NCBI RefSeq assembly: GCF_006345805.1
Contig: NC_043003.1
Span: 93,248,001 to 93,312,000 of the forward strand
Reading direction: 5' to 3'
DNA: 64,000 nucleotides
From: Octopus sinensis
Taxonomy: Eukaryota
Shown here: positions 343 to 64,000 of the stretch, in pieces
Position numbering within the stretch: position 1 is the stretch's first letter
How the letters are laid out: each line of letters begins with the position of its first letter
The notes under the pieces: model-generated
The model's input: the letters and a program-made list of their open reading frames with translations, nothing else
The model's database searches: none
What the model was told of the DNA's origin: nothing
Translations under genes and position numbers: made by a program

Positions 343-427
<85 letters not shown>
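341..427. repeat. (TCTA)n microsatellite at the 5' junction of the Tx1-like LINE
   Basis: Pure TCTA run ending where the LINE coding sequence begins; the same repeat resumes at about 2953-3002. Confidence 0.95.
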
Positions 428-428
428 A

Positions 429-2951
429 GGGTTTGGATGGTCTACCCTACGAGCTTTACAATTGTATGCCAGACTTGTTTGGAGATGTCTTGGCGGCGGT
501 GTACTGCAACTGGCAGCAAAACGGGAGCATTCCTGGTTTTGTGAGCCGAGGAGCCGTAACACTGCTGAGGAAAGATCTAAACAAGGGAAATGTAATAGAT
601 AACTTTAGGCCCATCACTCTGCTTAATGCAGACTTGAAAATTTTGGCCAAGGTGCTAGCCAAGAGGTTGGCGCTTGTCATCGAGAAACTGGTCGACAAGG
701 CGCAAACATGCGCCGTGCCGGGCCGGACCATCCATGACAACTTCTACCTGATGCGCTACATCATAGACAGGGTAGTTAACGAACATGGCATGGGTGGGGC
801 GCTGATCAATTTGGATCAATCGAAAGCTTTCGATAGGGTGGACCATCGATACTTGGAGGCAGTCCTCAGAGCGGCTGGCTTCGGTCCCGTCTTCCGCGGC
901 TGGATAGCCGCTTTGTACAGAGGCATCCGTTCGGTAATTCGCGTAAATTGACATCTATCAAGACCTTTCGACATCGCACGTTCGGTCCGTCAGGGATGCC
1001 CCCTCTCGTCGCTTCTATACGTATTGACTCTCGAGCCATTATTGCGGAAGCTGGCAACTTTGAGGGGCATCCCGTGAAAGATGGGATGCAGGACGAGCGT
1101 GTCTGCATACACGGACGACGTCACCGTCATAGTGTCTAGCCACGAGCACATCGAGCAGGTCGGCGAGACACTGAAAAACTACGAAACGGTGACAGGAGCG
1201 AAAATCAACCGGGAAAAGTCAGTGGGCTTGCGACTAGGCACCTGGAGAAGCAAGCCCATGCCGTCCACCAGCGCCTCCATCGTGGGACGCTGGACCGACG
1301 GCCCGGTCGAGTTGCTCGGGGTCTGGTTTGGTCCGGACCTCCAAGTGGAGAAGAACTGAAACGAGATAACGTGTAGGGTGGTCACTCTCGCCCGGCAATG
1401 GGCCGAGAGGAAACTGTCCCTAAAAGGTCGGGCGGAGGTGGTGAACACGTACATCGCGTCCGTCATCTACTACCGCCTGACTGTCGTGCCTTGTCCCGAC
1501 TCTACTATCACCAAACTAGAACGCATTCTCTTTCGCTTCTTGTGGAAAGGATGCGTCCCGATGGTCAGGCGATCCATTTGCTGTCAACACCCGTTAAAAG
1601 GGGGACTGGGCATGCCGTGGTTGATGATGCGCAGACACGCGCTGAGACTGCGACATCTCAGGCTCTTCGTAGACGACGGTGAACAGGTGTCGTCGCCGTT
1701 TGTGAGGCACGCTTTCCCGCAGCTCGTTTCCATGACCGAACTGCAGTCGTGAATCAAAAAGAGGCCGAGGAAGGGCGAATGGCACCGCGAGTGTCGCGTT
1801 GCTCTCAAGCAACTCTGTCGTCCTGGGTCGACCTTGAGTGACTTCATCACAACCAAAGCATTCTATAGGGGATTAGTGGAGGGGAGGTACGACGACGAGC
1901 TCGGGGCGAACCTGGACGTCGATGAGGAGTACCTGACCTGCCTGTTCGGGACGACTTTCAGGCCAGGGCCCATGGACAACTTCCAGAGATCCCTGGCCTG
2001 GCAGTGCTACCGAGAAGCGCTACCCGTTCGGGATAAGCTCTACAGACACGGCTCGAGAAACACGAGGCCGACCTGCCCGAGATGCGGTCAGAGCGACGAA
2101 ACCGTTCTGCACGCACTCGTGCAGTGTCCAACAATTTCCGACCTGTGGGCTTATGTCGAACAACTGCTGTCACGTGTGGGACGAGTCTGTGTATCAGCTG
2201 AGTCTATCGTCAATATTGTCGCGCCTCCTTCCTTCAAACGGGAAGGAAGAGCTATTTTCATCATTCTTGTGGCTATGGCGAAAGAATGTATCTGGTGGAC
2301 GCGTCTGAAAGGATTGGAGACAAACACTTTCCTCTCTGGTCAATCTCTCATCAACTTCTTCAAGTACCACTTGAAAAGGAAAGTGAGAGTAGAGAGGCAA
2401 GTTTTGTCTAGCGAATGTTTTAAAAAAAGATGGGTGAATGTAGCAGGGATGGCACGTATGAATGACGAAGCCACCTTGAGCATAATCCTATGAACCCAGA
2501 AATTGAAAACAGAGGGTTACCCACTTGCAAACAAATGTAGTAACATATAACAATATTGACCAAGGTTACCGTGGTCTTTTTCGTAGGCTTTTCTTCCCAC
2601 GGATAAACCTTACTTGTTTTCCCTTTTACACCATACATCATAACACTGTGATACACGATCCCTATTGATCGTTTTTTTTTCCTCTTCCCCTTTTTATCCC
2701 CTTTTTCTTCTTTTTTCATTTCTCTTTTCTTTTGTTCCTTTTCCTTTTCTTCTTTTTTTCTTTCTTTTTTTTTCTTTTTTAAATATTTTTTTTTTTGCTC
2801 TTTTTTTCCCTTTTACGATCCTTTTTGATCGAAAACCTACGCCACTTTTTTTTGTTTCTTTTGTTTTTTGTTTTTTTCATCCCCCAAAAGAAAAGCTCTA
2901 CCTTGTAACTTGTCCCATCTGTGTGCAGCCCTGTGTGGCCAATAAAGAAAC
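429..2951 (+). mobile_element. 5'-truncated Tx1/L1-clade non-LTR retrotransposon (ORF2 RT plus C-terminal zinc finger, 3' UTR)
   Basis: One frame (ORFs at 433, 1081, 1378, 1834) gives GLDGLP, NFRPITLLNADLKILAK, LDQSKAFDRVDH, RQGCPLS (988-1008), YTDD (1108-1119), GGLG and CPRC..ETVLHALVQC. A T-rich 3' UTR ends AATAAAGAAAC at 2941-2951. Confidence 0.93.
430..2493 (+). pseudogene. Tx1-like ORF2 reverse transcriptase pseudogene
   Basis: No frameshift; four in-frame TGA stops at 949, 1075, 1357 and 1750. Confidence 0.9.
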
Positions 2952-4258: not shown

Positions 4259-4391
4259 CGACATTACTTGGGATTCTAGGACTAAATGAGAATAACTGTT
4301 CTTATTTACAAAATTCAATAAACAAAACAATAAAAATCTATGTTTGCGTGTAAATGTGTCAGGACGTAGTAGGATATTATTTTTAAAATTT

Positions 4392-5038
4392 ATTTCAGTC
4401 ATTTGACTGTGGCCATGCCGCAGCACCGCCTTGAATATTTTTTAGTTGAATAAATTGACCCCAGGACTTATTCTTTGTAAGCCTAGTACTTTTTCTATTG
4501 GTATCTTTTGCCGAACCGCTAAGTTACGGGGACGTAAGCACACCAACATCGGCTTTCAAGCTATGATTGGGGTACAGACACAGACGCATACACAAACGCG
4601 CGCGCGCATGCTAACACACACACACACATACACACATATATATTTCTTTATTGCCCACAAGGAGCTAAACATAGAGGGGACAAACAACGACAGACAAAGG
4701 GATTAAGTCGATTACATCGACCCAAGTGCGTAACTGGTACTTTATTTATCGACCCCGAAAGGATGAAAGGCAAAGTCGACCTCGGCGGAATTTGAACTCA
4801 GAACGTTACAGCAGACGAAATACTGCTAAGCATTTCGTCCGGCGTGCTAACGATTCTGCCAGCTCGCCGCCAACATACACACATATATACATACGACGGG
4901 CTTCTTTCAGTTTCCGTTTCGTAAATCTACTCACAAGGCTTTCGTCGGCCCGAGACTATAGTTAAAAACAACTGCCGAAGATGTCACGCAGTGGGACTGA
5001 ACCCGGAACTTTGGGAAGCTAGCTTCTTACCACACATC
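4392..5038 (-). mobile_element. tRNA-derived CORE-like SINE (family A) interrupted by a family B SINE
   Basis: Tail portion at about 4392-4580 and head portion at about 4890-5038 match the other family A copies. Confidence 0.8.
4643..4872 (-). mobile_element. Meta/MESC-like SINE (family B) monomer with Tx1-like tail and 17-bp TSD
   Basis: Head ggcggcgagctggcagaatcgtt, B-box gagttcaaattc, core gtcgactttgcctttcatcctttcggggtcgat, tail ending gggcaataaagaaat. TSD acatacacacatatata at 4626-4642 and 4873-4889. Confidence 0.88.
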
Positions 5039-5284
5039 CACTGGTAAGGGAAATATATTTGTCGCAAAATCCACACGGGATATTTGCAGTTCCATTTTGA
5101 TCTCAGTACCTGCTACCCTAGTCACTGTAATTATAATTCTATCACTTACCCTCATCTGAATTTAACGTCTCTTACTGCTTCTCACTTTCTTTCCATTTGT
5201 CATTTTAGTATCCCTCTGTCTTCCCGAACAAAAGAACATTTGTATTTTATGATAAGTGTTATATATGTTTCATTGAATGCGTGT

Positions 5285-5565: not shown

Positions 5566-8450
5566 CGCTCACACACTGAAACAGACCGTCATTGTAAAAA
5601 AGGAACACATTTGGTTTCAGAGAGCAGTAATTAAAAAATATCAAAATTATTCTGGAATATTTTCTTTGTAATGTTTTGTTTTTACGTTATATTTTGTCCC
5701 TGTAATTATCTGGGTGTGATACAAAATGTTCACTTACGATTATTTACAGTCGGCTCTCAGCCTTAACTAATGCATTAATTGTTAAAAAATATTTTATAAC
5801 TGTTTACTCATTACTTAAACATAACAAGCATGAAATCCTGAATACTTCAAATGTATTTTTTTTTTAAATCTATCTTATTTTTACTTTTACATAACAAAGC
5901 AAACTATTTTGTCGAAAGCGACTTGTCACTTTGTTGAAGAAGCTTGTTTCTTTTCTACCAATTAATATCAGTGAAGCAACTGTGGTGCTGGGGGTGGCAT
6001 CTGTGTGGGATAAGAATGCCGGATCTGTAAGCAGGCGAGTCCGCAATTTGCATACAGTTACTGTCACTCTCTGTGTTTTTAGTAAAAACTTGTGTCTGTG
6101 GCTCAAATGATTTGCATCCTGTTTATTGTCACTGCTCTAGACTTGTGTCTATGGCTGAAATGACTTACACACTGTTACTGTATAGTAAAGAGGTGGTTCA
6201 AAATATTTAGCTTTAAATAAAAAGCGTGTATTGGTATTGGGATTGCTCTATGTTCGTGGTAAATACACATGAACCTGATATTAGGTTTACTCTAAATTTG
6301 TCACAAACGAAATTAAGTTTTCTCTAGAATAGTGGTTTTCAATCTTTTGTATTTCAGCGCTCCCTTTTACTGAATGACATTTTACAAACACTTTCACCTC
6401 GTATCTATTAAAAAAAAATACACCCAAGGGTATAATATTTCAATCAAAGGAAGCTAATTCTGAGCAGTGTTTTATATGTTTTGTACTACCCCCATCTAAC
6501 ATTGTCTCCTTTTAGATATTTGCGTGGGCTAGTATCTACTATTTAAAATTTTTACGGAAATTACAAAGCAAGGCAAAAATTTATACTATGAAATTATATG
6601 AGACTTTGGCATATCATCTGTCATGTTCTTTTCTCCACAGGTAACACTATGTCCTGCATATATTCTAATCCCGAAAACGTTTCTTTTGATAATGTGTTTC
6701 AAATGTAAAGTCTTGTGCCTGGTTTAAATACGTTATTTCTGAGAAAAATCACGACTACTCAAAACATCCAGCACCTCCTAAAGTGCTCTCATGACATTTG
6801 CCGTCTCCTTGTGGTCTCAAAATGTCCCACAAAAAGGGTACAACCAAAAAGGTCAAGGGCCACTCCTGAAGAAGAATTAGAAGTTGAAACTGTAGAATCT
6901 CTAACGATATTAATTCGTTTTCTTTGTCCTTTTCATATTTTGGCGGAAAAGCTGTAGTGGCAAAAATAGTTGAAAACTGAACAAAATTTCTTGACTTATA
7001 TGTTTTCTTCACTTTCAAAGTTCTAAGTTCAAAATCTCAGAAGGTTTATTGCACCTTTCTGCTATTGTCAACAAAATAAGTATCAGTCATGTTATAAGGA
7101 CCATTTAGATAGACTGTAGCCCCTTCCCTACGAATAAGGTTTTCATAAGTTTATAACAAATCTTGCTATGCTAATTAGATACTTGAAGTAAAGCGTCTAA
7201 TGGTATATATGAACCAATTCATTTGATTATCTATCCCCGATGCTAAGTATTCGTAAACAACTTAACATGTTATATTTCTCTCGATGAAGTTATATTATAT
7301 TGGACTGTACATCTGACGGCTGTAATCAAATAATGAAATATGGAAAGTATTTCTCGGAAACGATACGCTATCAAAGAGAATTTAAAGCATTTCATGAAAT
7401 ACAATAACTCTCGTGTTTGAACAGTGTGTATATTTGTTTAAACCAATATGTATAGGTTGTATATATTAAAATATTTATCTGTAAGTGCATTTTTTCCGCC
7501 CATTTCTGTTATTTATGTCATGCATAAATTACTTGACTGGTGAGAAAATTTCGTAGTATCACTTTTGCCAACAATTCAAAGATTTTGTAGATGTTTCTTG
7601 GCAACAATTATTCATTTTGCTGTACTTTTAGTATTAACCATCTTCATATTTTTCTATAGATATAGATCCTAATCGCTATTGTTATTATCTAGTTTTTCTT
7701 CAACCCTACTAAAAAAGACATGTGTGCATCCGTTTTGCTGGAATATGTAGAGCAATGACTCTGAAACTAGTCTCTGATTGCTGGCTTTGTTGGGTGGAGG
7801 TGCTTATCATTCCTGTTTGAAAACTTAAGGACACAGAACGCTTGTGTCACGTAGCCAACTAGAAACGGTGTTTCTTGGGGTTGAAATAGCAGTAGCATTC
7901 TTCCCTTTCCTGGGACTGCCACATTAAATTGGCAACAAACCACTTTAATTTAAAAATTGTCCATGAATATATCAATGGTCAAGCATGCTAAAAAATAAAC
8001 ATATGAATCATAATTACAACGGAGAGGGTGACAAAGACCCTTGCATGCTTAGAAATAGCTGTAAAAACTGCTTTAAAACTACCATAATCACTCATATTTT
8101 TCTCTTCACAATAACGCTGTCTGTGGGTGACATGACATAAAATTCACAATTAAAAAAAATTTTGATCAATTCTCGAAGTCAGAAACTTATACTATATCAT
8201 ATACCGTATCGTGGAATAACGGATATAAACAACACGACACTTTCATTATTCTCATCAGGAGAATGTTCTGTAAATACAAATCATATAGGCGCTGCGTGGC
8301 TGTATGGTAAAAAGCTTGCTACCCAAGCACAAGGTCCCGGGTTCAGCCCCACTGCGTGATACCTTGGGCAAGTGTCTTCAACTATAGCCTCGGGCTGACC
8401 AAATCCTTGTGAGTGGATTTGGTAGACGGAAACTGAAAGAAGCCCGTCGT

Positions 8451-8981
8451 AATACATACGCGGTGAAGCTACACAATAGCGTCGTATTTTTACGTTCGCT
8501 ATTTCCAGTAAATATCGGTACTTAGTTGTGCCATTTATTTACTAATTTGTGTATTTTCCCTCACGGGCTACTTTTTACTGGAAGGCAATACTTTGTATTG
8601 CCTACTGATATTTTGAAACTTCTTACCGTTTCTCGTACTGTTAGCGTTCCGCATTTCAGTCGAGCGTGTTAGTATTAATGTGGTAACATCGTAGATTTCG
8701 TCTTGGTATATGTTTGGCTGATGAAGGTAAAACAAAATATGAGTGAGAGACATATCTTGTAAAACCTGAAACCTGTAGGTACCACATTATCCTTTTCCGG
8801 TTGTTTCATCTTTCAGATGTTCTCCCTGGAGGTAAGACGGTTTTTTTTCTCTAATTTGTTGCACACACGCATTTTTGCTAATACATACGCGGTGAAGCTA
8901 CACATTAGCGTCGTATTTTTACGTTCGCTATTTCCAGTAAATATCGGTACTTAGTTGTGCCATTTATTTACTAATTTGTGT
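8451..8981 (+). mobile_element. Partial tandem (about 1.2 copies) of a 429-bp unit carrying a hammerhead ribozyme; retrozyme or Penelope pseudo-LTR-like
   Basis: 8451-8552 is repeated at 8880-8981 with one mismatch; the hammerhead lies between the two copies. Confidence 0.8.
8710..8787 (+). ncRNA. Type I hammerhead ribozyme, intact core
   Basis: tgg-CTGATGA(8718-8724)-aggt...acct-GAAA(8768-8771)-cct/gt/agg-TA(8780-8781)-cca. Stem II extends through acaa/ttgt and atatg/catat. Predicted cleavage after 8781. Confidence 0.85.
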
Positions 8982-8992
8982 GTATATATATG

Positions 8993-9034
<42 letters not shown>

Positions 9035-9252
9035 GTGTGTTTGTATATATGTTTGTTTGTGTTTGTTCCCCAACTATTGCTTGACAGGCGATGTTAGTGT
9101 GTTTACGTTCCCGTAATTTAGCGGTTCGACAAAAGAGACGATAAAATAAGTACTAGGCTTACAAAGAATAAGTCCTGGGGTCGATTCGTTCGACTAGAGG
9201 CGGTGCTCCAGCATGGCTGCAGTCAAATGACTGAAGCAAGTAAAAGAATAAA

Positions 9253-9948: not shown

Positions 9949-10382
9949 TTTTGCCATTACAATTGTATTTGTATATCTATTACTTCAATGATCAATGTGT
10001 TCTACGTTTTTTAACGCGGTAGGGTGTCATTTGAAAGTGAAGGAAAGAGAGAGGAAGAGCGAGTCTACCGCAAGAGGAGAGAGAGGAGGAGAGAGAGAGA
10101 GAGAGAGAGAGAGAAAAGAGAGAAAGAGAAAGAGGGGCGATGGAGACGTGACTATGTAATCTTGACGGTTCTAATTTCGTTGTTGTGCAAAGTTTTACTG
10201 CATTATCTATAATATAAAAATATTTGTAACAACCGTACCCTGTTTCTCTTATCGAGATACGTTTGATATCCCTCTATCAAATACTTTAACGGTCATTTTC
10301 TGATCTGATTGACACTTTTCTCCATTTCCTCTGAATACATTGAAGTGTGTCAGGTTGTCATTGCATTATACAATATGGATTT

Positions 10383-10992
10383 AGGGCGGCGAGCTGGCAG
10401 AATCGTCAGGACGCTGGGCGAAATGCTTACCGGTATTTCGTCGGCCGCTACGTTCTGAGTTCAAATTCCGCCGAGGTCGACTTTGCCTTTGCCTTTCATC
10501 CTTTCGTGGTCGATTAAATAAGTACCAGTTACGCACTGGGGTCGATATAATCGACTTAATCCCTTTGTCTGTACTTGTTTGTCCTCCCTGTGTTTAGCCC
10601 CTTGTGGGTAGTAAAGAAATAGGTATTTCGTCTGCCGTTACGTTGTGAGTTCAAATTCCGCCGAGGTCGACTTTGCCTTTCATCCTTTCGGGGTCGATAA
10701 ATTAAGTACCAGTTACGCACTAGGGTCGATGTAATCGACTTAATCCATTTGTCTGTCCTTCTTTGTCCTCTGTGTGTTTAGCCTCTTGTGGGTAGTAAAG
10801 AAATAGGTATTTCGTCTGCCGTTACGTTCTGAGTTCAAATTCCGCCGAGGTCGACTCTGCCTTTCATCCTTTTGGGGTCGATTAAATAAGTACCAGTTAC
10901 ACACTGGGGTCGATATAATCGACTTAATCCGTTTCTCTGTCGTTGTTTGTTCCCTCTATGTTTAGCCCCCTGTGGGCAATAAAGAAATAAAA
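10383..10992 (+). mobile_element. Family B SINE trimer (head plus three units of about 185-190 bp) bounded by one 18-bp TSD
   Basis: Junctions aaagaaata|ggtatttcgtc at about 10622 and 10806. TSD attatacaatatgRattt at 10365-10382 and 10993-11010. Confidence 0.9.
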
Positions 10993-11086
10993 ATTATACA
11001 ATATGAATTTTGTTAACTATTTAGTTGTTTTTACGTACATGGAAGTATTTCTCAGCTTCCGATTACATTAAATATGTAAATAGAAC

Positions 11087-13399: not shown

Positions 13400-15600
13400 T
13401 TGTGGAATAATAACAATCACCTATACATGCAGATCTCCACTCCCGGACAGATCTCATTCAGATGTATGGCGAAAGTATCAAGGGCACACAAAAACTACCC
13501 CAATGGTTATCAATTGCAACTACTCTTTTCATTTCCTAAAAATAGTTAAACCACCCTTGCTAAAAATTACTGCCCAATAGCCAACCAGAGCATCATGTAC
13601 AAATTGTACATTGCGTGTCTCAATCTGTTCTTGCAGGATCATTGTGCCACCAATATCAACATTATAACACCTGAGAAAGCTGGAGGAAAGAAGAAGGTGT
13701 GGGGACTGTATAGAACAGCTACTAATTAACAAAATGATCCAGGAAACACTAAAAGATTGCAGTAACTTAAATGTAGTGTGACTGGACTACCAGAAAGCTT
13801 TTGATAGTATAATCCATGGGTGGATTATCAAGGTTTTACAGTTAGCCAAATTCTCATAACCACTAGTGAGTGCTGTGAACATGTGACAAAGGCTTGGCAC
13901 ACCTCTTTGCTTCTTAGGAGTGATGAGGAACAAATTAAGATAGCATTCACTACCTAAAAGGTATCTTTCAGGGTGATATTCTGTCGATGTTGCTCTTTGT
14001 TCTCTCACTAAACCCACTACCATACCTGTTAACAAAACTTAGTGATCATTGAAATGAACCCAGAGGTGTTTCCCATCTTTTCTTTGTCGACGACCTGAAA
14101 CTGTATGGGCCAAATATCGACCGCATAAAAAATCAATTTGACGTCATTGCTCGATTTTCTAGACATTGGAATGGAATTCTCTGAGTTCAAATGTGCATAA
14201 CTGACAATGAAACGTGGAAACGTTGCGCTCTCTGAATACTTAAAAATAAACAGTTTGACTATACAACCTCTAGTCAGGTGACAATTATAGATATCTTGGA
14301 CAAGGTGACAATGTCAGATATGATGGACCCATAAATGAGGAGAGGACCAGAAATGAATACCTCAGAAGAGTAAAGAGGGTATGGCAATTAGAACTCTCAG
14401 CTTACAAGCATATTGCCCGCTACACCTTCGCAGTGCCTGTATTCATGTCTAGGTTTGGCTTTCTGAATTGGTCACTATAAGAACTCAATGAGATAGAAGT
14501 TCGAACTCGCAAACTTCTCAGTGTTAGAGAAAATATTAACATTAATGGAGATGTAGATACGCTATTCTTCCCAAGCAAGGATGGTAATCGTGGTCTCAAA
14601 TCTATATTGATGTCCTATGAAGCACATATTGTAACATTGAATCAACATTTGCGGCAAAGGAAAGAGATCAGTAACTCTTTTGCCCAAGTTAGTGAGCATG
14701 AAATCAACAACATAATTAGGATTGCTAATGAACTTGAAGAGAGGCATGAAATAAGAGCTGATACAGACATCTCTTCGAGAAGCATTAGTAAAATCTGTTT
14801 ATCAGAAAAACAGAATTAAAAGAAATGGACCGGTTCGCTGAAAAGGTAGTACATGGCTACTTGGTACGTAAAACACAAAAGATTGACGGGACTGATCATA
14901 CGCTTGGCATGGAATGTCGATAAATATATGACATTCCTCTTTGAAAGCTACACCATGCAATTTAAGAAGAGATTCCCACCAGGTACCTACATCATAAAAG
15001 GCAGAGAACGTTGATAGACAACAAAGGTAGGTTGTTTAAGGCTAAAACGGAAAAGATGAACCTAATTATTGCCAACTGCGAGAGAATGCCTTTCAGATAT
15101 TTCCCCACTGAGGTATGATACGGTGGCCAGAACAGCCTGGAATAAGATAACAAAAAAGAAAAAAAAACCTCAGACGAAATTGACCATATCAAGACCGATG
15201 GGTAAAAAGAATATCGGTGAAACTTAAAAATTAAAACAGCCACTAAGTTATAACACAACTGGTCAGATATTGTTGCGTGGGACCACAAGGAAAAGATATG
15301 TTCTGCTGTGGAAATCAGCTGCCATCTGAACACCAATGTGGTTAGAAAAATACAAGAGAAAAAGGACATCCATGGATCATTGATAAGAAGTTTGCAAATC
15401 CAGTAACCAAGATACACTTTCAGCTTCATACCTATTATCATTGGAGCAGCAAGATTAATACCAATCCGGCTAGAGCAAAGTATGGCTGAACTTGGGATGT
15501 TAATGAGAGACTGCAAATCCTTAATTTATACGTTACAAATGATCGCGATATCTGGGACTACAAAAATCTGCAATACCTCCTTGAGATTTAAAGGATGATA
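13400..15600 (+). mobile_element. Decayed R4/Dong-like (restriction-like endonuclease) non-LTR retrotransposon
   Basis: Broken frames give NVV*LDYQKAFDSIIHGWI, GIFQGDILS, SHLFFVDDLKLY, YRYLG, DTLFFPSKDGNRGL and NWSDIVAWDHKEKICSAVEISC (PD..D/E-type nuclease region). Confidence 0.85.
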
Positions 15601-15807
15601 ATTAAAACAAGATGCTTTTCTTCACAACTTTGCTATAAAATAGGTGGCCAGTCAGTATTTATTCTTAATCAAAAAGAGAAAAAGAACATATGTATGAGTG
15701 TATGTATGTATGCATGTATGTATGCATGATGCATGTATGTATGTATGTATGTATGTATGTATGTATGTATGTATGTATGCATGCATGTAGGTGTGTGTGT
15801 GTGCGTG

Positions 15808-19954: not shown

Positions 19955-20535
19955 CTTTTCTACTGTAGGCACAAGGCCCGAAATTTTGGGGGATGGGTCC
20001 AGTCGATTAAATCGACCCCAGTATGCAACTGGTACTTAATTTAATGACCCCGAAAAGTTGAAAGGCAAAGTCGACCTCGGCGGAATTTGAACTCAGAATG
20101 TAAAGACAGACGGAATACTTATTTCTTTACAACCCACAAGGGGCTAAACACAGGGAGGACAAACAAGGACAGACAAACGGATTAAGTTGATTATATCTAC
20201 CCCAGTGCGTAACTGGTACTATTTAATCGACCCCGAAAGGATGAAAGGCAAAGTCGACCTCGGCGGAATTTGAACTCAGAACGTAGCGGCAGGCGAAATA
20301 CCTATTTCTTTACTGCCCACAAGGGGCTACACACAGAGGGGATAAACAAGGACAGATAAACGGATTAAGTCGATTACATCGATCCCAGTGCATAACTGGT
20401 ACTTAATTTATCGACCCCGTAAGGATGAAAGGCAAAGTCGACCTCGGCGGAATTTGAACTCAGAACGTAACGGCAGACGAAATACGGCTACGCATTTCGC
20501 CCGGCGTGCTAACGCTTCTGCCAGCTTACCACCTT
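19955..20535 (-). mobile_element. Family B SINE trimer; last unit has an alternative tail
   Basis: Two units with Tx1-like tail are followed by a unit ending cccccaaaatttcgggccttgtgcctacagtagaaa. Confidence 0.88.
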
Positions 20536-20633: not shown

Positions 20634-21065
20634 CAGGGAGCCGGCAGAGTTGTTAGCATGTCAGACAAAATGCTTAACGGTATTTCTTCCAGTCAGGGCG
20701 GCGAGCTGGCAGAATCGTTAGATCGCCGGGCGAAATGCTTAGCGGTATTTCGTCTGCCGCTACGTTTTGAGTTCAAATTCCGCCGAGGTCGACTTTGCCT
20801 TTCATCCTTTCGGGGTCGATTAAATAAGTACCAGTTACGCACTGGGGTCGATATAATCGACTTAATCCGTTTGTCTGTCCTTCTTTGTCCTCTCTGTGTT
20901 TAGCCCCTTGTGGGTAGTAAAGAAATAGGTATTTCTTCCGGTCATTTTTATATTCTGAGTTCAAATTCCGCGGAGGTCAACTTTTCCTTTCATCCTTTCG
21001 TGGCGCATCGATAAGGTAAGCACCAGTCAAGTGCTGGAATCGATGTAATCGAATCCCCCACCAAA
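20634..21065 (+). mobile_element. Older family B SINE containing a younger full-length family B SINE (20696-20926)
   Basis: Host sequence ggtatttcttccRgtca is duplicated at 20679-20695 and 20927-20943. Confidence 0.85.
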
Positions 21066-21464: not shown

Positions 21465-21640
21465 AGGTGGTGGCGGCATTTTGTCCTGCTTTATACTCTG
21501 AGTTCTAATTCCGCCGAGGTCGACTTTGCTATTCATCCTTTCGGGGTCGATAAAATAAGTACCACTTGAACAGGAAGGTCGATGTAATCGACTTATTCCT
21601 CCCTCGAAGTTGCTGGCCTTGTGCCAAAATTTGAAATCAA
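21465..21640 (+). mobile_element. Family B SINE with alternative tail
   Basis: Meta-like core plus ttgctggccttgtgccaaaatttgaaa. Confidence 0.75.
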
Positions 21641-22198
21641 TATTTATGCCCACTTAAACGCGTATATCTTGTTAGAACAAACAATAGTGCAGTAGATACG
21701 GTGAGAAACTCTGACTTAGGCTTTTGGTGCAAACTGCTCCCTTGTTTATATTGTTAACAGGGAGACTAAAAGCTAATGTGAGAATTTTTCTCGTGGTTTC
21801 TACAGCAGTACAGTTTGTTCTAACAGAGGAAATCCACGTTTAAGTTGGCCTAAATATTACTTCGCGAAATTTTTAGTGTCCGAGCAGCAGCATATGAAAA
21901 GAAGATTGATAAACTACAGATACAACACACAGTGAATCACTTTGGGTAGACATCAACACCCGAGACACTTTTTAGGTGTGGTCATCCATTCATTTAAGAC
22001 TTAAAAAACCTGTTTTCTAACTTGACAGAGAAACAAAAAGAGTTCGTCGAGAACAATTTGCTTTTTGTATTGTATAGCTCTATTTATGACATATCGAACT
22101 ACGAATAATGGTTTAGCTCAGTGGTTCTTAATTTTTTCTGTAGCGGCCCCACTTTTAAATAGTTGTTATGCCTATCACCCACTTGAGTGGTGACTGAG

Positions 22199-22388
22199 GT
22201 GTATTTCGTCTTCCGTTACGTTCCGAGTTCAAATTCCGCCGAGGTCGACTTTGCCTTTCATCCTTTCAGGGTCGATAAATTAAGTACCAGTTATCCACTA
22301 GGGTCGATGTAATCGACTTAATCTCTTTGTCTGTCCTTGTTTGTCCCTTCTGTGTTTAGCCTCTTGTGGGTAGTAAAGAAATAGGTAT
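22199..22388 (+). mobile_element. Headless family B unit
   Basis: Starts gtatttcgtc and ends gggtagtaaagaaataggtat. Confidence 0.85.
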
Positions 22389-22591: not shown

Positions 22592-22905
22592 ACCAGTACC
22601 GGGCCGCAGACCAGTACCAAGCTGCAGAACAGAGCCGGGCCGCAGACCATTACCGGGTCGTAGACCATTACCGGGCTGCAGAACAGAAACGGGATGCAGA
22701 CTAGTACCTGGTACCGGGCCGCAGACCAGCACCGGGTCGCAGACCAGTACCAAGTTACAGAACAGAAATGGGCTGCTGCAGACTAGTACCGGGCCGAAGA
22801 CCAGTACCAGGCTGTAGGCCAGTACCGGGCCGCAGACCAGCACCGGTCCGCAGACCAGTACCGGGCCGCAGATTAGTACTGGGCCGCAGAGCAGAACGGG
22901 CAGCA
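22592..22905. repeat. 18-bp minisatellite (consensus accagtaccgggccgcag, about 17 copies)
   Basis: Units counted by eye. It lies between hAT-like ends at about 22120 (cagtggttctt) and 23150-23188 (..ggttagggcccgctg). Confidence 0.9.
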
Positions 22906-30103: not shown

Positions 30104-31030
30104 GTTTCTTTATTGCCCATAGGGGGCCAACGTAGAGAGGACAGCACAGCCTGATTGGGTTCTGACATATAAAAGATAATAAAAATTTATAAACGCTTAC
30201 AATAAAATCAGATGAATTACAGTCGGATGAGATACAATACAAAAGACAAAATTACACATGCACAATGAGATAGAAAAATAGGTTACGCTCCGACCCCACG
30301 AGCCCTGTTCTGCTACCGGTACCTTTTTGTTCAGCCTTATGGCACGTTCACGAGGAGTCTTTCACACTCAGCATTCTCGCTACACGCATCCATCTGTCTT
30401 TAAACATCCTCTCCGACAGGCATATTCTCTCCAGCCTCACTTTCCTTTTCAGGTGAAAAGTAAAGAACCTCACCAACTCGAGACCGGAGATGAAGTTGCC
30501 TGTCGCCATTCCTTTCTTTCTCGTCTTCCATATCGCCTCTTTCACAAACGCTACTACTGCAATTCTTGCCTTCTTTCGTTAGGAAATCTGGCAGATCAAT
30601 TTTTTAAATTGAGTCAGACGACAGCTGTACTCTTCTTAAGTCCGACAACAGATGTTCCACATAAGTCCACACTTCTGACACTTCCGGACACTGAACAATA
30701 GTGTGCAGGACGGTTTCCCTTTTCTCATCACATCTTGGACAGGCCGATGGACCAGGTTGGCCGTGCCTGGTGAGCTTATCCCGAACGGGTGAGGCTCCTC
30801 GGTAACATTGCCAGGCCAGAAATTTTTGGAAGTTATCCAAAGTCCCCGGCCCGAATGTCCTTTGGAACAGACTGTCTAACTGGTTATCATCGAGACCCAG
30901 TGCCTTCCCCAGAGCTTCATCATTTCCAGCCTCTACCAACCTGCTATAGAAAGATGCGGTGGTACCAAAACCGCTGGCATTACCCGAGCGAAGGAACAGT
31001 AGCAGGGCTTTACGGCACTCCGTAAACCAT
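30104..31030 (-). mobile_element. Second Tx1/L1-like LINE 3' fragment (different subfamily)
   Basis: DNFQKFLAWQCYRGASPVRDKL..CPRC..ETVLHTIVQC and FFTFHLKRKVRLER are homologous to ORF 1834-2493. The 3' end is gggcaataaagaaac. Confidence 0.88.
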
Positions 31031-31283
31031 TTTCATTTGCAAAGTCTCTCACTTTCTCTTTTAAGTCTTAATTCACTTTTTATGTAAATGTAATGTAAAA
31101 ACATTATTTATGAAATGAAAATTTTTTAAATACCTGTGCAATTTTTGAATGTGGGATAGCTGTGAGAAGAGCCTGGAGAGACGGGTAATTACTATTAGAA
31201 GATGAGGAGAAAAATAACAAAATGTTACCAACAAGTACTCGAAACTTTCACCTTATTCAGTTTCCAAACACAACTTCAACAGT

Positions 31284-38739: not shown

Positions 38740-40450
38740 CATCTTAAAACGAAACTGATGGAGATTGAGAAAAATCTGAAACACTTCTATGAAAAAGAGA
38801 GAACAGACAAAGAAGCCTAAGTTTCAGAAAATATAAAATCAAAGCCTAAAACTTTCTGTAAGTTTGCCAGAAAAAACTGCCTACAGAGTAGGGCCACTTC
38901 TCCAAAAAGATGGTTTCCTCACAGGAAACCCAATGAGTATAATGAAACACTGAATGATCAATTGAAAAGTGTTTTCCCCTCACACTTACAGCACATGCAA
39001 CTCACCAAACCTGACAAACTTCCGTGCAGGTTGAAGGAAGCAGCAGCGTGGATGCCAAAGACTATAAACCTATCCCTCGGACGTTGCGTATCAGCATAGT
39101 TGTGGGACGGAGAGCCCGAAGGAAACTAATAATGTTCCTGGAAGAAAATCACTTGCTGACTGACATCTGGCATGTTTTCCGACCAGGAAGAAGCTACCTG
39201 ACACAGCTCTAACAACACTATCACTGGGTATTGAAACAGTATTCAATAAAGTCGATCATGGAATTATATGTCACAAACGGCATGATTTCGGCATATTTGG
39301 AGAGTGGCTATATAATTTTCTGCAAGATAGAAATAAGGTAGCAGTAGCCAACGTGGTTATCTCCAAGGAAACACAAATGATGAGTGGTGTGCCACAGGGT
39401 ACTCTCTTGGGGCCACTACCTTTTTATCGTGGCCCTCTCAGATATGCCCTCATCCACTCAGCTACCATCACAATCTATGCATATGGTACAAACTTTTCCC
39501 AAGTAATACAAAATCCTGAAGATGGCATGCACCTAAAACAAAAGTTAGATGCAATATATACGTGGGCTGACAACAATAATACGTATTTTAATACTGGAAG
39601 GTTTCCAAGCTTTACGCTATCAGCAGACAACGTTAAATGCAATACAGACAAAATACACAGGAGTTGGAAGGATCGCAGTTCCAGAATCACAATCAGTCGG
39701 TAACCTGGACATTAATATGAGTAGTGATGCATCCTTCCATGTGCATATTATTAAGATGGTAAGAAAAACAGGCGGTTGATCGAATGAATTCTTAGAACTT
39801 CCAGAACAAAGGTACAGGAAATCACTATACTCTGGAGGATATTTATCCTAAGCTGTCTTGACTATTACTCCCAACTATGGTCACCACACAGTGTGAAATT
39901 AATAGCAGAACTCAAAGCGCCCCAACGAAACCACATGAAAGAGATATCCTCAATGCAACAAATTAGCTACTGGGAAAAACTCAAGAGGTTAAGATTTTAC
40001 TCTGTGGAACGAAGGCGGGAAAGATCAATAGCAATATCCACCCGGAGATCCTGAAAGCACTTGTCTCAAACATTGGTGTTGGAAGTTATATAAACGCCAG
40101 AAAAGGGAACAATTGCATATTGTCTAAAATCCTTCTTCTGTCGTCAAAATGCAAGACCAGGCACTGCAATAGCTTGGTGTTCAAGGGCCCACTGCTCTTC
40201 AATATCCTATCGAAGGATCTGAGAGACCTACATGGTGTGGAGGCAGATATCTTCAAAATTAAACTGGATCATCTATTGTCAAGAATCCCAGAGAAGCCAA
40301 CTTCACGACAGGAAGAAGAAATGAAGGCGCTAGCATCAAATTCCCTCATTCAACAAATACTAACTATTAAAGAATTAATGAAGGGTTAGCAACAACAGGT
40401 GGCGGTGCTCCAGCATGATCACAGCCTTTGAGCTGTAACTCGGAAAATAC
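38740..40450 (+). mobile_element. Decayed CR1-group LINE (RT and C-terminus)
   Basis: HVFRPGRSYLTQL, KVDH, SGVPQGTLLGP, LDYYSQLWSPH, YWEKLKRL..SVERRRE, GPLLFNIL..FKIKLDHLL..IP; stop at 40387-40389. Confidence 0.85.
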
Positions 40451-40518: not shown

Positions 40519-42215
40519 CCGTGTTTCTCCGAAAATAAGATCCGGTCTTATATTAATTTTGCATCCAAAAAACGCACTAGGACTTATTTTCGGGAGATGT
40601 CTTATATTTTTGCGGAAAATATCCAAGAAAGACAAAAAAGTCTCATGTCCTCGTGTAAAAGAAAAAAGAATTATAAAAAGGAAACCCATGTTTTTAGTTA
40701 TCAAAAGTTTATTTATTTGCTTATTATTTTTAGTCAAGTACAATCATTTCGTCTTCTTCTGGAATATCGTTACAAATCATCAAACCCCAACTACAAACTG
40801 AATTTCTTGCAAACCCATTTCCTGTAGAATCATGGACCCAAATCTCTCATGTTTGGCAATATAACTTTCCTTAAATGAACACTTTTTGTTCAAGTACCCT
40901 GTTCATAGTGCATTGGCAACGCAACTGTCGGTAATTTTATTCCATGAATTCTTCACCGAATTCAAGACTTCCTGGAGATTGGGTTTGACAAAGTTTCCAC
41001 GCTGATTTCTCTCCATTCTATGTTCGATATATTTATTCACTTCCATCCGCAAATAATTTTTGACGGGCTTGTTTATTACAAGATCTAATGTTTGTAGATA
41101 TGGAGCTATTCCCGCAGGAATCATTATGTGGTCAATTTTTCTTTCAGAAAGGAAGATTTTCATATCTTTTGCGCGATTAGTACTGGCTGAATCTCAGACT
41201 AAAAGACCTCTTTGAAAACCACGTAAAACAAGTGACATAGTTAAATCAACCCATTTTCTTATTGTGTGCACCAAGCCTTTTCCATTTAAAGGATATGAAT
41301 ACCCAAAACTCGTTCTATTTTCCCTTCTTGGCCATTTATTATGATAAGCGGTGGGACTTTTGTTCCATCAAGACGAATTGCTAAAATACAAGTAACTCTT
41401 GCACTTTCGTAACACGTTGAGGCAACGTAGATTGACGAGGCACCTGTCTGTTTAATTGTCGTTTTAGATCCTTGGCCCATAAATACTGCAGTCTCATCCA
41501 TAGCAATTGTATTGGAGAGATTGTATTTAGAAAAGTCGATGCCATCAATGAAGGACTTGAATGCAAGTGCACGTTGAATCACTTCAGCATCCTCCAGCTT
41601 GAACAGTTTTGTCGATCTTCTTAGAGAGAGCTCATATCGCCGAAGGAAGTTATCCAACCAATGAGGTAATGCTTTGAATATCTCTGCGGGTATATACCCA
41701 AATGTGGTGCCATTGCAAGAGAAATTCTTGAATATCAGCCCTGCGTAGAACCAAAGCCTTTGTACTTCTATCAGCAATCCATCTTGAGGTAATATGTTCC
41801 AGCTCCGAAAATAACGGTTGTCTACTTGATCCACACTTGTGCTTCATAGCACTTCCCTCATCCACCTGTCTGCTGAAACTATCGTACTCTGCTCACCATT
41901 TTCGAACCACTCGGTGACCCAACATCTTACAGAAAGCCGTAAGATTCTTGTCATGACTCTTCCACAATTCCTTTCTTGTACTCCACGGAATAACTATTTC
42001 TTTTTGCACTCATCTTACCTGGAGAACAAGTGAGTCAACTACTTTAGCCAAGCTATGTTTATTGGTTTATTTTGCAAACATCACATGGTCTTGTTAACAA
42101 GCTGATGCATTTTTGACTAGGCTTTATTTTCGGGGTAAGGCTTATATTAAGAACATCCTGAAAAATCATGGTAGGGCTTATTTTCGGAGTAGGTCTTATT
42201 TTCGGGGAAACACGG
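40519..42215 (-). mobile_element. pogo/Tc2-like DNA transposon with both TIRs, about 1.7 kb
   Basis: TA|ccgtgtttctccgaaaataaga ... tcttattttcggggaaacacgg|TA, with repeated subterminal cttatttt motifs. Confidence 0.93.
40780..42013 (-). pseudogene. pogo-like transposase (CENP-B-type HTH plus DDE), frameshifted
   Basis: MSAKRNSYSVEYKK, PLFSELE..WI, WLDNFLRRYELSLRRST, MDETAVF, DGTKVPPLII, IPAG..YLQTLDLVINKPVK. Confidence 0.88.
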
Positions 42216-54017: not shown

Positions 54018-54248
54018 GTATGTATGTGTGTGTATGTGTTTGTGTGTCTGTGTTTGTCCGTCTAGCATTGCTTGACAACCGATGCTGGTGTATTTACGTC
54101 CCCGTTACTTAGCGGTTCGGCAAAAGAGACCGATAGAATAAGTACTGGGCTTACAAAGAATAAGTCCCGGGGTCGATTTGATCGACTAAAGGCGTTGCTC
54201 CAGCATGGCCGCAGTCAAATGACTGAAACAAGTAAAAGAGTAAAAGAG
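53844..54248 (+). mobile_element. Family A SINE, 5' truncated
   Basis: Matches 45817-46228. Confidence 0.9.
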
Positions 54249-56053: not shown

Positions 56054-56403
56054 GAATTCCGCCGAGGTCGACTTTGCCTTTCATCCTTTCGGCGTCAATT
56101 AAATAGGTACCAGTTACACACCGGGGTCGATATAATCGACTTAATCCGTCTGTCTGTCCTTGTTTGTCCTCTCTGTGTTTAGCCCCTTGTGGGTAGTAAA
56201 GAAATAGGTATTTCGTCTGTCGCTACGTTCTGAGTTCAAATTCCGCCAAGGTCGACTTTGCTTTTCATCCTTTCGGGGTCGACCTTGAAAAGATAAAGGG
56301 CAAAGTCGACCTCGGCAGCATTTGAACTCAGAACATAAAGACGGATGAAATATCGTTATGCATTTTGCCAGGTGCACTAATGATTTTGCCAGCTCACCGC
56401 CTT
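56054..56403. mobile_element. Family B dimer fragment fused to an inverted family B copy
   Basis: Junction gaaata|ggtatttc at about 56207; orientation switches at gtcgac, about 56278-56283. Confidence 0.8.
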
Positions 56404-57189
56404 ATTAAAAAAAAAAAGCATTGAAAGAAAGTCGAGAACAAGACAGTCAAACCGAACATATATCAATGTCACTAATCTTGGTGACGTTACCTCTCCCACT
56501 GACTAAAAACCACAAAGATTCGAGTACGACTCATTCTCAGAAAAGAACTCATGGGAAAATTTTAAATCAGCACAACAGGCTTTTTAAATATACGTCAATC
56601 ATATACTATGATATCACAGCAGACAATGTGTTGAACACTAGATCTATTTATTGTACCTATTTACAGTTAGGTTGACTAATCTGGACTATTGTTGAGAATA
56701 AAACTAGCTCAGCGTTGCTTAAAAGATTTAAAAACTCGTTCCATCACTCAGAAAAACCAACACTCTACCAGACAATTCATGACTGATTCCTAGCAGACTT
56801 TTTTGCTTTTTGTTGAAATACAATGCCTTTTCTCTCGATTAGATTAACATGAAATAGTAACCACTCTTTATCGCTACGTAGAAGAAGGTCACTTCACTTT
56901 TATCCTTTCAAGGTCGATAAAATAAAGTACCAGTCAAGTACTGGATCGATGTAATCGACTTGCCTACTCTCTACTAAATTGCTGGCCTTGCGTTAAAATT
57001 AGAAAAAAAATTAGAAATAATTGTTGTTATATAGAATTGACCTACTGTTAAGATATATCGCTTATACGGTATATCGTATATTGTTGTTAGGTGTTTGTTC
57101 AAATCAGCTTTGTCTTCCATCCTTTCGGGATATGTCTGTGTCTCTACCTTTCACGCAGTCGCTCTCATGTACACACCAACACGCACATG

Positions 57190-57279
<90 letters not shown>

Positions 57280-57804
57280 TATTCACTCCCCCACCCCATA
57301 TACACAAAATAAGAACCATTCAAATGCTGGAAGTCAATGGTATCGACTTACCCCTAATTTGAGGCCTTGTGCCTCAACTACAAACCGGTCTAAATAAAGA
57401 AAACATATTATTAGGGCTGGATTCAAACTTGATGAGGCCCTTAGTTATATAAAACTTAGGGAAGACTTGCCAACTAGTATAGCCAGAAGGCTGAAGCAGG
57501 GATGAAGAAGTGAAGGACTGAAAGGATGATCCTCATAGAGTGACATTTTGACGTGTATTATGCTTTGCTTTCCATGAGGGACAAGCAAACTCAATGGCTG
57601 TATCTGGCAACACGAGCACCATCTACACCATTGTTCCACTGGTCTCATAGAAACGGTCTTGTAAAAATGCCTTTTAATTATTTTGAATCCCCTGCAGATT
57701 CTGAGGTCCAAAGTTGTACGTTGTTTATCTTAAACAACGACGACTCAATCTTTCATTTTCGAGCGATGAATTATTCTATATCCTTACTTTAAAAAGAAAA
57801 CAAA

Positions 57805-63387: not shown

Positions 63388-63511
63388 GTATCGACAACTA
63401 CAACCGCAACAAAAGCAGCGGCAGCAACAACAGCAACAGTAATGATAACGGCGCAGCGGTAGCAGCAACAACAGCACTAGTAGGCACCACACCGACTCCA
63501 CGCATCCAAGG

Positions 63512-63825
63512 AAACACATTAGATGCGCCGGAACTTCTTTTAAGAAACGTCTTTCCAACCATAGATCCTCTTTCAGGGTCCCGAAAGGAGATATGTAACG
63601 TCGCTGGCCAGCCATATCTGGCAACAGAAAGAAAATGGAATTCCATACTCAATATCATGGATCCCCCACCGTCCGGGTTCGTACATCAATGGAACGAATC
63701 GCTGCAAGCTATGCGTAGCCGAACGCATGGAAATCGTGAAAGACTCTTACATACTAGGGACCATACTGAACTCCAAAACCTAGATTTTCGGTTCGTGCTT
63801 GCATTTCAGGAGATTCCTGTTAGTG
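63512..63825 (+). pseudogene. Penelope-like GIY-YIG endonuclease C-terminal remnant
   Basis: HIRCAGTSFKKRLSNHRSSFR, frameshift, then TSLASHIWQQKENGIPYSISW..YINGTNRCKLCVAERMEI..LNSKT*IFGSCLH. Matches the PLE YIG..FK.R..NH..SF..LS..IW..C.LC..E..LN..E....C.H pattern. Confidence 0.85.
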
Positions 63826-64000
63826 TTTTTGGAACCGGATAATAGCGATATTAGCGATAATTACACCACAACTGGAAATTGATGACTGGTGGGAGTGGGA
63901 AATAGCCCTCTACTTTTTACCCTCATAGCCGACAGGTGGCTTAGCTGAGGGAGGACGACACAGCCGGAAGCCGATGACCAGTGGCAAAGGAAGATAATCT

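What the first reader, a model, noticed from the sequence alone, without database searches (positions are those of the whole stretch)
2911..2951. Family B SINE shares its 3' end with both Tx1-like LINEs
Seen: LINE1 tgtcccatctgtgtgcagccctgtgtggccaataaagaaac; LINE2 (30144-30104, minus) tgtcctctctacgttggccccctatgggcaataaagaaac; SINE (10948-10988) tgttccctctatgtttagccccctgtgggcaataaagaaat. All have a short stem-loop before AATAAAGAAA. Known: SINEs borrow the 3' tail of their partner LINE, and the usual partners are L2, CR1 or RTE. Inference: this is a Meta/MESC-like SINE mobilised by a Tx1-clade LINE. The 17-18 bp TSDs fit an L1/Tx1-type endonuclease.
Basis: partly seen in the sequence, partly recalled or inferred. 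Interest (0 to 1): 0.75.

Follow-up and report, generated by a model that had tools for sequence, protein, structure and literature searches.

The report
Cephalopod SINE with a Tx1 tail
A short mobile repeat in an octopus-like genome carries the same 3' end as two Tx1-type retrotransposons and keeps landing at one fixed site inside its own relatives, which points to an animal member of the L1 group that recognises a specific RNA tail and not just poly(A).

Summary
Observation confirmed; one coordinate is off by one base. A profile of the 9 SINE B tails finds only two further significant sites in 64 kb: the 3' ends of the two Tx1-like LINEs (E 5e-7 and 6e-7; next hit E 1.7). Similarity covers the last 41-50 nt at 69-81% identity, then falls to background. 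LINE1's tail lies inside the same microsatellite insertion as its RT. Two other LINEs in the window lack the tail. SINE TSDs are 17, 18 and 17 bp. Best reading: a SINE swapped onto a cephalopod Tx1-lineage tail and is mobilised by that lineage, probably by a third family. 'Meta/MESC-like' is not supported. The stem-loop is weak (4 bp, no compensatory change), and only 2 of 9 SINE tails end in AATAAAG. One insertion has a host-derived 17-bp TSD there; others form head-less arrays. The catalogues I read list no animal SINE with an L1/Tx1 tail. Evidence is two LINE copies; no genome-wide test was possible.

The parts
429..2951 (+). LINE1: 5'-truncated Tx1-like LINE. ORF2 remnant 430-2493 (RT, zf-RVT; 4 in-frame stops, no frameshift), 458-nt 3' UTR
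2901..2951 (+). LINE1 3' tail shared with SINE B (core 2911-2951; similarity reaches back to about 2901)
345..428 (+). (CTAT)n microsatellite target of LINE1; its last 20 nt recur exactly at 2953-2972, bracketing RT, UTR and tail as one insertion
30104..31032 (-). LINE2: 5'-truncated second Tx1-like family (zf-RVT; 53% aa identity to LINE1 over 144 aa; one frameshift); tail 30143-30104; no TSD found
4642..4871 (-). Full-length SINE B, AAT-type tail, 17-bp TSD in the microsatellite of a SINE A copy
10385..10988 (+). SINE B array: one head, three body-tail units (tails end at 10620 AGT, 10804 AGT, 10988 AAT); outer 18-bp TSD at 10365-10382 and 10993-11010
19957..20534 (-). SINE B array: one head, two units (tails end at 20304, 20121), then the remainder of an older B' host with a different tail
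20696..20926 (+). Full-length young SINE B (AGT type, 1.6% from the window consensus) inserted into an older B' copy (20638-21060)
20679..20695 (+). Site T in the B' host head; duplicated at 20928-20944 (17 bp, 1 mismatch) with the host's own variant sequence
22201..22382 (+). Head-less SINE B unit that starts at site T and is followed by GGTAT and unrelated DNA; no TSD
56055..56282 (+). 5'-truncated SINE B unit (tail ends 56205) followed by site T and part of another body, abutting an inverted B'-like copy (56404-56279, -)
21478..21650 (+). SINE B': same body as SINE B, different tail after the GTCGAT-N5-TCGACT module (further copies near 33376-33174 - and 56897-57005 +)

Best explanation
SINE B is a non-autonomous retroposon with a Pol III-type head. 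It arose when an older head-and-body SINE (B') exchanged its 3' tail, just after a shared palindromic module, for the last ~45-65 nt of a cephalopod Tx1-lineage LINE. The ORF2 protein of that lineage would bind this tail in trans (stringent type; probably a small GCCC/GGGY hairpin on a longer imperfect stem ahead of the A-rich end) and insert the RNA by target-primed reverse transcription with 17-18 bp TSDs. The direct partner is probably a third family related to LINE1 and LINE2. The younger AGT subtype is inserted preferentially at one nucleotide (site T) between the A and B boxes of other B/B' copies. Where the target matches the donor, the cDNA can anneal at the duplicated site or in the head, giving head-less ~184-bp tandem units; where it is diverged, a full copy with a normal TSD results. 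Shown: shared tail, tail swap, TSDs, fixed insertion register. Inferred: direction of borrowing, protein-RNA recognition, role of the hairpin, junction mechanism.
For: The only significant non-SINE matches to the tail profile are the two Tx1-like ends, in terminal register. Both matches stop inside the B-specific tail module and never enter the body shared with B'. The LINE1 tail is bracketed with the RT by one microsatellite duplication. Two LINE families only 53% alike in protein both carry it. Both LINEs end in C where 9 of 9 SINEs have T. LINE tails are 7-8 mismatches from the nearest SINE copy and 9-10 from the consensus, while SINE copies are 0-6 from it. LINE1 decay (4 stops in 687 codons, roughly 3-10%) overlaps SINE B divergence of 1.6-8.7%. 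The two other LINEs (38760-40450, 13500-15690) give no match. 7 of 7 AGT tails are followed by A-RGTAT (background frequency of RGTAT 0.0019), 6 of 7 by a SINE body; two different B' hosts are cut at the same nucleotide, one with a host-specific 17-bp TSD. Target preference, including for other elements and microsatellites, is typical of Tx1 (PMC4494074).
Against: Only two LINE copies, no family consensus and no genome-wide data. Part of the match is an AATAAA-like end that bivalve SINEs with CR1-type tails also have; without the last 11 nt nhmmer support is weak (E 0.054, 1.4). Hairpin: no compensatory change, no excess over shuffles, one broken pair in LINE1. Neither LINE copy sits at site T, so no shared target links LINE and SINE. 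LINE2 has no TSD. 3 of 6 SINE loci have no TSD. The most divergent SINE-SINE tail pair also differs at 8 of 41. Tx1 placement rests on similarity scores and one database name, not on a tree.
Confidence: 0.75

Rival explanations
1. The LINE ends are captured SINE B fragments: reverse transcription began on SINE RNA and switched to LINE RNA, or a truncated SINE inserted at each LINE end. The true partner is another LINE.
For: SINE B is abundant (9 tails in 64 kb). The LINE tails are no closer to each other (30 of 42) than to SINE B. LINE2 has no TSD to bracket it.
Against: It would have to happen in 2 of 2 Tx1 copies, in the same register, and include only the tail module. LINE1 has no separate SINE TSD. 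P(8 or more of 41 mismatches) is 0.015-0.05 if 8-10% divergence is expected, though 0.27 at 15%. Both LINEs share a terminal C absent from all 9 SINEs.
Confidence: 0.08
2. The tail is Tx1-derived but is only a historical relic. Recognition is relaxed (A-rich end or polyadenylation signal), and the hairpin is not needed.
For: Weak folding, no covariation. L1-group elements are mostly relaxed (PMC3472496). Crocodilian SINEU-1 shares no 3' end with any LINE, and its Tx1 link rests on shared targets (PMC4494074).
Against: No poly(A) tract follows either LINE or 8 of 9 SINE tails (a 5-A run after 10988). Two families with unalignable 3' UTRs keep this one 41-nt segment. The subtype-defining changes in the stem keep pairing (G-C to G-U, U-A to U-G; 95.5% of cells paired vs 44-50% when slid, structure derived from these sequences).
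Confidence: 0.13
3. For the arrays only: they come from DNA-level duplication or unequal recombination, or from one multimeric master copy moved en bloc, not from repeated targeted insertion.
For: Head-truncated SINE arrays are known in a bivalve and ascribed to recombination (PMC11481361); SINE-derived satellites exist in squamates (PMC10702118). Most units lack a T4 Pol III stop, so multi-unit transcripts are possible. Locus 56055 lacks an upstream host.
Against: Units within an array are 89-92% alike, less than the best pairs between loci (95-96%). The 20696 copy is a full monomer with a host-specific TSD at site T. Two different B' hosts are cut at the same base.
Confidence: 0.25
4. Chance or convergent similarity of pyrimidine-rich, AATAAA-ending 3' ends.
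For: AATAAAG ends are common; one borderline extra hit (63917, -) appears to be chance.
Against: E about 5e-7 twice, at both Tx1 termini; PWM still above all 30 shuffles without the last 11 nt.
Confidence: 0.03

Closest known systems
SINEU / Tx1-Mar of crocodilians (Kojima 2015, PMC4494074; read parts 1-4 of 5)
   Same: SINE mobilised by a Tx1-clade LINE; target preference for another repeat; tandem insertions around a TSD.
   Different: SINEU has U1/U2 heads and poly(A) ends; the link rests on shared targets, and no LINE shares the SINEU-1 3' end. SINE B has an A/B-box head, a shared sequence tail, and targets its own family.
ZmSINE2/ZmSINE3 with LINE1-1_ZM; SINEX-3_CR with L1-1_CR (Ohshima 2012, 2013; PMC3472496 part 1 of 3; PMC3747384 passages and Table 1)
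   Same: SINE sharing ~45-80 nt with a hairpin at the 3' end of an L1-clade LINE (stringent type).
   Different: Plants and a green alga, with compensatory changes shown. Here an animal Tx1-lineage LINE, no poly(A) tract, no covariation yet.
Mollusc HCD SINEs with exchanged tails (PMC4824008, PMC4758252, PMC11481361; passages and parts of supplements)
   Same: Modular SINEs that swap tails between LINE partners; head-truncated tandem arrays in Scapharca broughtonii.
   Different: Partners in the passages seen are CR1, CR1-Zenon, L2 and Nimb/I; 'Tx1' occurs 0 times in PMC11481361 and PMC4824008. SINE B lacks the Meta/MESC block.
Kibi/Koshi and crocodilian microsatellite-targeting Tx1 families (as described in PMC4494074)
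   Same: Tx1-clade LINE inserted in a microsatellite, as LINE1 is in (CTAT)n.
   Different: Those target (TC)n, (TTC)n, (TTCC)n or (TTTC)n; one copy cannot show specificity here.
Octopus OK, OR1, OR2 SINEs (Ohshima and Okada 1994; not seen, cited in other papers and recalled)
   Same: tRNA-type SINEs of octopus.
   Different: OR1/OR2 are described as CORE SINEs; SINE B could not be compared with their sequences.

Membership tests
L1/Tx1 group LINE (LINE1, LINE2) | RT followed by zf-RVT in an APE-type ORF2 | tested here: met
   RVT_1 E 6e-14 and zf-RVT E 1e-8 in LINE1, zf-RVT E 2e-10 in LINE2; full-length relatives carry PF03372+PF00078+PF13966; best PDB match is L1 ORF2p.
Tx1 clade | RT closer to Tx1 than to L1 proper | tested here: met
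   P0001 scores 262 bits (residues 230-912) against YTX2-named P0154 and 174 bits (whole protein) against human L1 ORF2p. Similarity only.
Tx1 clade | Placement in an RT phylogeny with reference Tx1 and L1 families | not testable with these tools
Tx1 clade | Target-sequence preference | tested here: inconclusive
   LINE1 lies in (CTAT)n; LINE2 in unique A+T-rich DNA; one copy each.
Stringent SINE/LINE pair | Shared 3'-terminal sequence | tested here: met
Stringent SINE/LINE pair | Conserved stem-loop with compensatory changes | tested here: inconclusive
   4-bp consensus stem; 0 of 10 pairs changed on both sides, 4 of 10 on one side; folding not above shuffles.
Stringent SINE/LINE pair | Concurrent activity | tested here: inconclusive
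   LINE1 decay roughly 3-10% and SINE B 1.6-8.7% overlap; single LINE copy.
Stringent SINE/LINE pair | Tail required for trans-mobilisation | not testable with these tools
   Needs an assay.
tRNA-derived SINE | A and B boxes; tRNA homology of the head | tested here: inconclusive
   A-box pattern at 20707; the B-box-like GTTCAAATT missed the recalled consensus pattern. No tRNA by ARAGORN or Rfam.
tRNA-derived SINE | Short, interspersed, TSD-flanked, LINE-type tail | tested here: met
   About 230 bp, 6 loci with the B tail, TSDs at 3 of 6.
MetaSINE / MESC SINE | 66-bp Meta (MESC) domain right after the tRNA head | tested here: not met
   By-eye comparison with BivaMeta-SINE1, BivaMD-SINE1 and MESC rows: the GCGCTCAGCA-type block is absent; body motifs not found in those supplements apart from 7-nt and 6-nt words. 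No scored alignment.
Nin/Deu or Ceph SINE | Nin or Ceph central domain | tested here: inconclusive
   No resemblance by eye to the Lottia_Nin row or SepiaSINE; few references seen; SINEBase supplements unavailable.

The most novel reading that the evidence does not exclude
The first animal SINE with a stringent L1/Tx1-clade tail, and a self-homing one: the AGT subtype lands at one site in its own Pol III head. Pol III read-through past the tail would then add a ~17-nt copy of the target to the RNA (in the 20696 copy the first T4 stop lies 19 nt past the tail). That extension could guide priming at the same site in other copies, a feedback loop that builds head-less arrays by retrotransposition and not by recombination.
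Probability: 0.3. Interest if true: 0.8.

Novelty: new variant of a known kind. Interest (0 to 1): 0.58.

Why it matters
Whether L1-clade elements began as stringent readers of a structured 3' tail and later relaxed to poly(A) is an open question. A 2012 survey found only 3 SINEs with L1-clade tails among 58 pairs, all in plants and a green alga. An animal Tx1-lineage pair would put stringent recognition on the animal branch that also holds Tx1 and vertebrate L1, and would give a 41-nt element to mutate. SINEs make up about 11.6% of the Octopus vulgaris genome, mostly unclassified among recently active ones, and L1-Tx1 families are recently active there, so naming a partner helps explain that expansion. 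The window also shows three tails after one shared module, and fixed-site self-insertion offers a route from SINE to tandem array.

Tried and rejected
More LINE or SINE loci with DNA: genome contigs gave 0 matches to a SINE body pattern and no relative of P0001 among 31 pattern hits; plasmids gave none. The viral and metagenome collections stayed unchecked, and no cephalopod genome, Repbase or Dfam could be searched. Names for cluster members could not be obtained. A third tail candidate at 63956-63917 (-) scored just above shuffles (16.6 vs 15.7; 21.5 vs 18.7). I rejected it as probably chance: it lacks the A-rich end and lies antisense in the 3' part of an element whose translation looks Penelope-like (recalled motif, no Pfam hit). 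It is 44 nt from the window edge, so this is not final. tRNA identity of the head: nothing. LINE2 TSD: best 6 bp. Pfam scan of 142 of 429 stop-to-stop ORFs (those of 75 aa or more and not low-complexity) found RT only in LINE1 and at 39164. ESM Atlas gave only unnamed RT clusters. 'TX1' in PMC4176376 is a mutant name, not the clade. Meta/MESC label rejected. RNA-target pairing by the tail end itself was considered; the tail end matches the primer strand, so only read-through RNA could pair. Ten literature searches showed no SINE with a Tx1 tail. Supplements not seen that may bear on novelty: SINEBase, file 1 of PMC4758252, the supplement of PMC13282606 (listed only), and parts 2-4 of the PMC4824008 supplement beyond searched passages.

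Full report
Setting. The window is repeat-rich eukaryotic DNA. The best named relatives of LINE1's RT are from Argonauta hians (70%) and Acanthosepion pharaonis (58%), so the source is a cephalopod, probably an octopod (inference).

Observation. The three strings are present; the LINE2 string spans 30143-30104, one base shorter than stated. The window holds 9 SINE B tails at 6 loci. Over the last 41 nt LINE1 matches them at 29-33 of 41 without gaps and LINE2 at 29-34 of 42 with one gap; upstream blocks fall to 0.32-0.47. An HMM of the 9 tails finds the two LINE ends at E 4.7e-7 and 5.9e-7 and nothing else below E 1.7; a PWM gives 40.2 and 38.2 against a maximum of 15.7 in 30 shuffled windows. 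With the last 11 nt removed the PWM still separates them (29.3, 27.4 vs 18.7) while nhmmer weakens to E 0.054 and 1.4. The match is real, and part of its weight lies in the A-rich end.

The LINEs. LINE1 (429-2951, +) is a 5'-truncated ORF2 with RT and zf-RVT, 71% identical to P0001 over 687 codons, with 4 stops and no frameshift, then a 458-nt 3' UTR. It sits inside (CTAT)n, and the last 20 nt of the 5' flank recur just after the tail (the length is an upper bound in a microsatellite). RT, UTR and tail therefore arrived as one insertion. LINE2 (31032-30104, -) is a second family, 53% identical to LINE1 over 144 aa; their 3' UTRs align only at the tail. P0001 scores 262 bits against a paddlefish protein named YTX2 and 174 bits against human L1 ORF2p, which favours Tx1; no tree with reference families could be built. 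Two other LINE remnants serve as controls: one at 38760-40450 (RVT_1 E 0.0016; CR1-like by recalled motifs) and one at 13500-15690 (restriction-like-endonuclease type by recalled motifs; no Pfam support). Neither carries the tail.

Is the tail a captured SINE piece? Against: 2 of 2 Tx1 copies have it in terminal register; both matches stay within the module that separates SINE B from its relative B'; both LINEs end in C where 9 of 9 SINEs have T; and they lie 9-10 mismatches from the SINE consensus where SINE copies lie 0-6. For: the LINE tails are no closer to each other than to the SINE, the most distant SINE pair also differs at 8 of 41, and LINE2 has no TSD. The distance also implies that the direct partner is a third family.

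The SINE. SINE B is about 230 bp: a head with an A-box match at 20707 and an imperfect B box (no tRNA hit), a body, a palindromic GTCGAT-N5-TCGACT module and a tail of about 65 nt. Older B' copies share the body but carry another tail after the module. SINE A shares the module and continues into a tail that matches the end of the CR1-like LINE. So three tails follow one junction. By eye the body lacks the Meta/MESC block seen in the supplements of PMC4824008 and PMC4758252, and it does not resemble the Nin or SepiaSINE rows seen. TSDs are 17, 18 and 17 bp at 3 of 6 loci; 0.1-0.15% of 2000 random pairs reach such scores.

Structure. RNAalifold predicts a 4-bp stem closing a 5-nt loop. A longer 10-pair model is kept in 95.5% of cells against 44-50% when slid, with 4 pairs changed on one side and none on both; the shuffle control carries no information here, and the model was derived from these sequences. 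Single tails fold no better than shuffles (z -0.29 to -1.85). The hairpin is plausible but unproven.

There are two subtypes. AAT copies (2 of 9) end as the LINEs do and have A+T-rich TSDs outside SINE B. AGT copies (7 of 9) are all followed by A-RGTAT, and 6 of 7 by a B or B' body starting at one nucleotide between the A and B boxes (site T). These 7 tails lie at 5 loci, so they are not all independent. At 20696 a full copy sits in an old B' host with a 17-bp duplication of the host's own variant of site T, which is direct evidence of insertion there. A second B' host (20120, -) is cut at the same base. The arrays at 10385 and 20534 have one head and mixed units 89-92% alike, less than pairs across loci (95-96%), which argues against recent local duplication. 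Site T begins at the loop-to-stem boundary of a predicted hairpin in the B head (3 of 3 B heads folded; not in the B' host). Inferred mechanism: nicking at site T, cDNA synthesis from the tail, and 5' joining by annealing to the duplicated site or head, which drops the second head; a diverged target forces a full copy with a normal TSD. Targeting could come from the Tx1 endonuclease or from read-through RNA that carries the site, as co-transcription with the target is reported to strengthen targeting in other LINEs (cited in PMC4494074). Neither LINE copy here is at site T, so the two cannot be told apart. En-bloc movement of arrays remains possible (56055, 20534).

Comparison with what is known. 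Ohshima's survey found 3 SINEs with L1-clade tails among 58, in maize and Chlamydomonas; Table 1 lists no animal L1 or Tx1 tail (PMC3472496 part 1 of 3; PMC3747384 passages and Table 1). SINEU is inferred to use Tx1-Mar from shared targets, with no shared 3' end for SINEU-1 (PMC4494074 parts 1-4 of 5). Mollusc SINE surveys name CR1, L2 and Nimb/I partners in the passages seen; 'Tx1' occurs 0 times in PMC4824008, PMC11481361, PMC5786205, PMC5804259 and PMC3531059. Cephalopod repeat papers list L1-Tx1 and SINE abundance without pairing them in what I read (PMC13282606 part 1 of 3 and passages; PMC8967140 passages). Head-truncated SINE arrays are known (PMC11481361; PMC10702118 passages). Ten searches found no Tx1-tailed SINE, but the library lacks most subscription papers, and Repbase and Dfam were not searchable, so a prior record is quite possible.

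Verdict. It works like a stringent SINE/LINE pair with a Tx1-lineage partner (0.75). It is not shown to be a Meta/MESC SINE. It is a new variant of a known kind; interest 0.58, rising to about 0.8 if genome-wide data confirm both the tail and self-targeting.

Noticed in passing
window 40400-40450 (+) vs SINE A tails (e.g. 54190-54240 +, 9199-9245 +): The CR1-like LINE remnant at 38760-40450 ends in a sequence matching the SINE A tail (17-nt exact match to 4 copies; about 48-nt alignment), a second SINE/LINE pair in the window; a SINE fragment at the LINE end was not excluded.
   Followed up: partly
window 20845, 54170, 20018 (-) and other copies: SINE A, B and B' share a palindromic GTCGAT-N5-TCGACT module immediately before three different tails: a possible tail-exchange hotspot.
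   Followed up: partly
window 21590-21650 (+), 33212-33174 (-), 56976-57005 (+), 19993-19957 (-), about 57340-57400 (+): The B' tail has no LINE match in the window; its partner is unknown.
   Followed up: partly
window 13500-15690 (+): Decayed LINE with restriction-like-endonuclease motifs (Dong-R4-like by recall); its 3' end matches no repeat in the window.
   Followed up: partly
window 63400-64000 (+): 3' part of a Penelope-like element (GIY-YIG-type C-terminus by recall); its antisense strand gives a borderline match to the SINE B tail at 63956-63917.
   Followed up: partly
window 40906-41843 (-): Pogo/Tigger-like DNA transposon remnant (DDE_1 E 1e-8; HTH_Tnp_Tc5 E 0.007), with apparent terminal inverted repeats near 40520-40610 and 42130-42215.
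   Followed up: no
window 56207-56404: Two SINE B/B' pieces are fused in inverted orientation at a palindromic GGTCGACC site.
   Followed up: no
window 4377-5042 (-): A SINE B copy is nested in the internal microsatellite of a SINE A copy, so SINE B was active after that SINE A insertion.
   Followed up: partly
window 22592-22905: GC-rich minisatellite of roughly 21-nt units in otherwise A+T-rich DNA.
   Followed up: no
window 8450-8552 and 8879-8985: About 100 bp duplicated directly around a 330-bp segment; origin unexplained.
   Followed up: no
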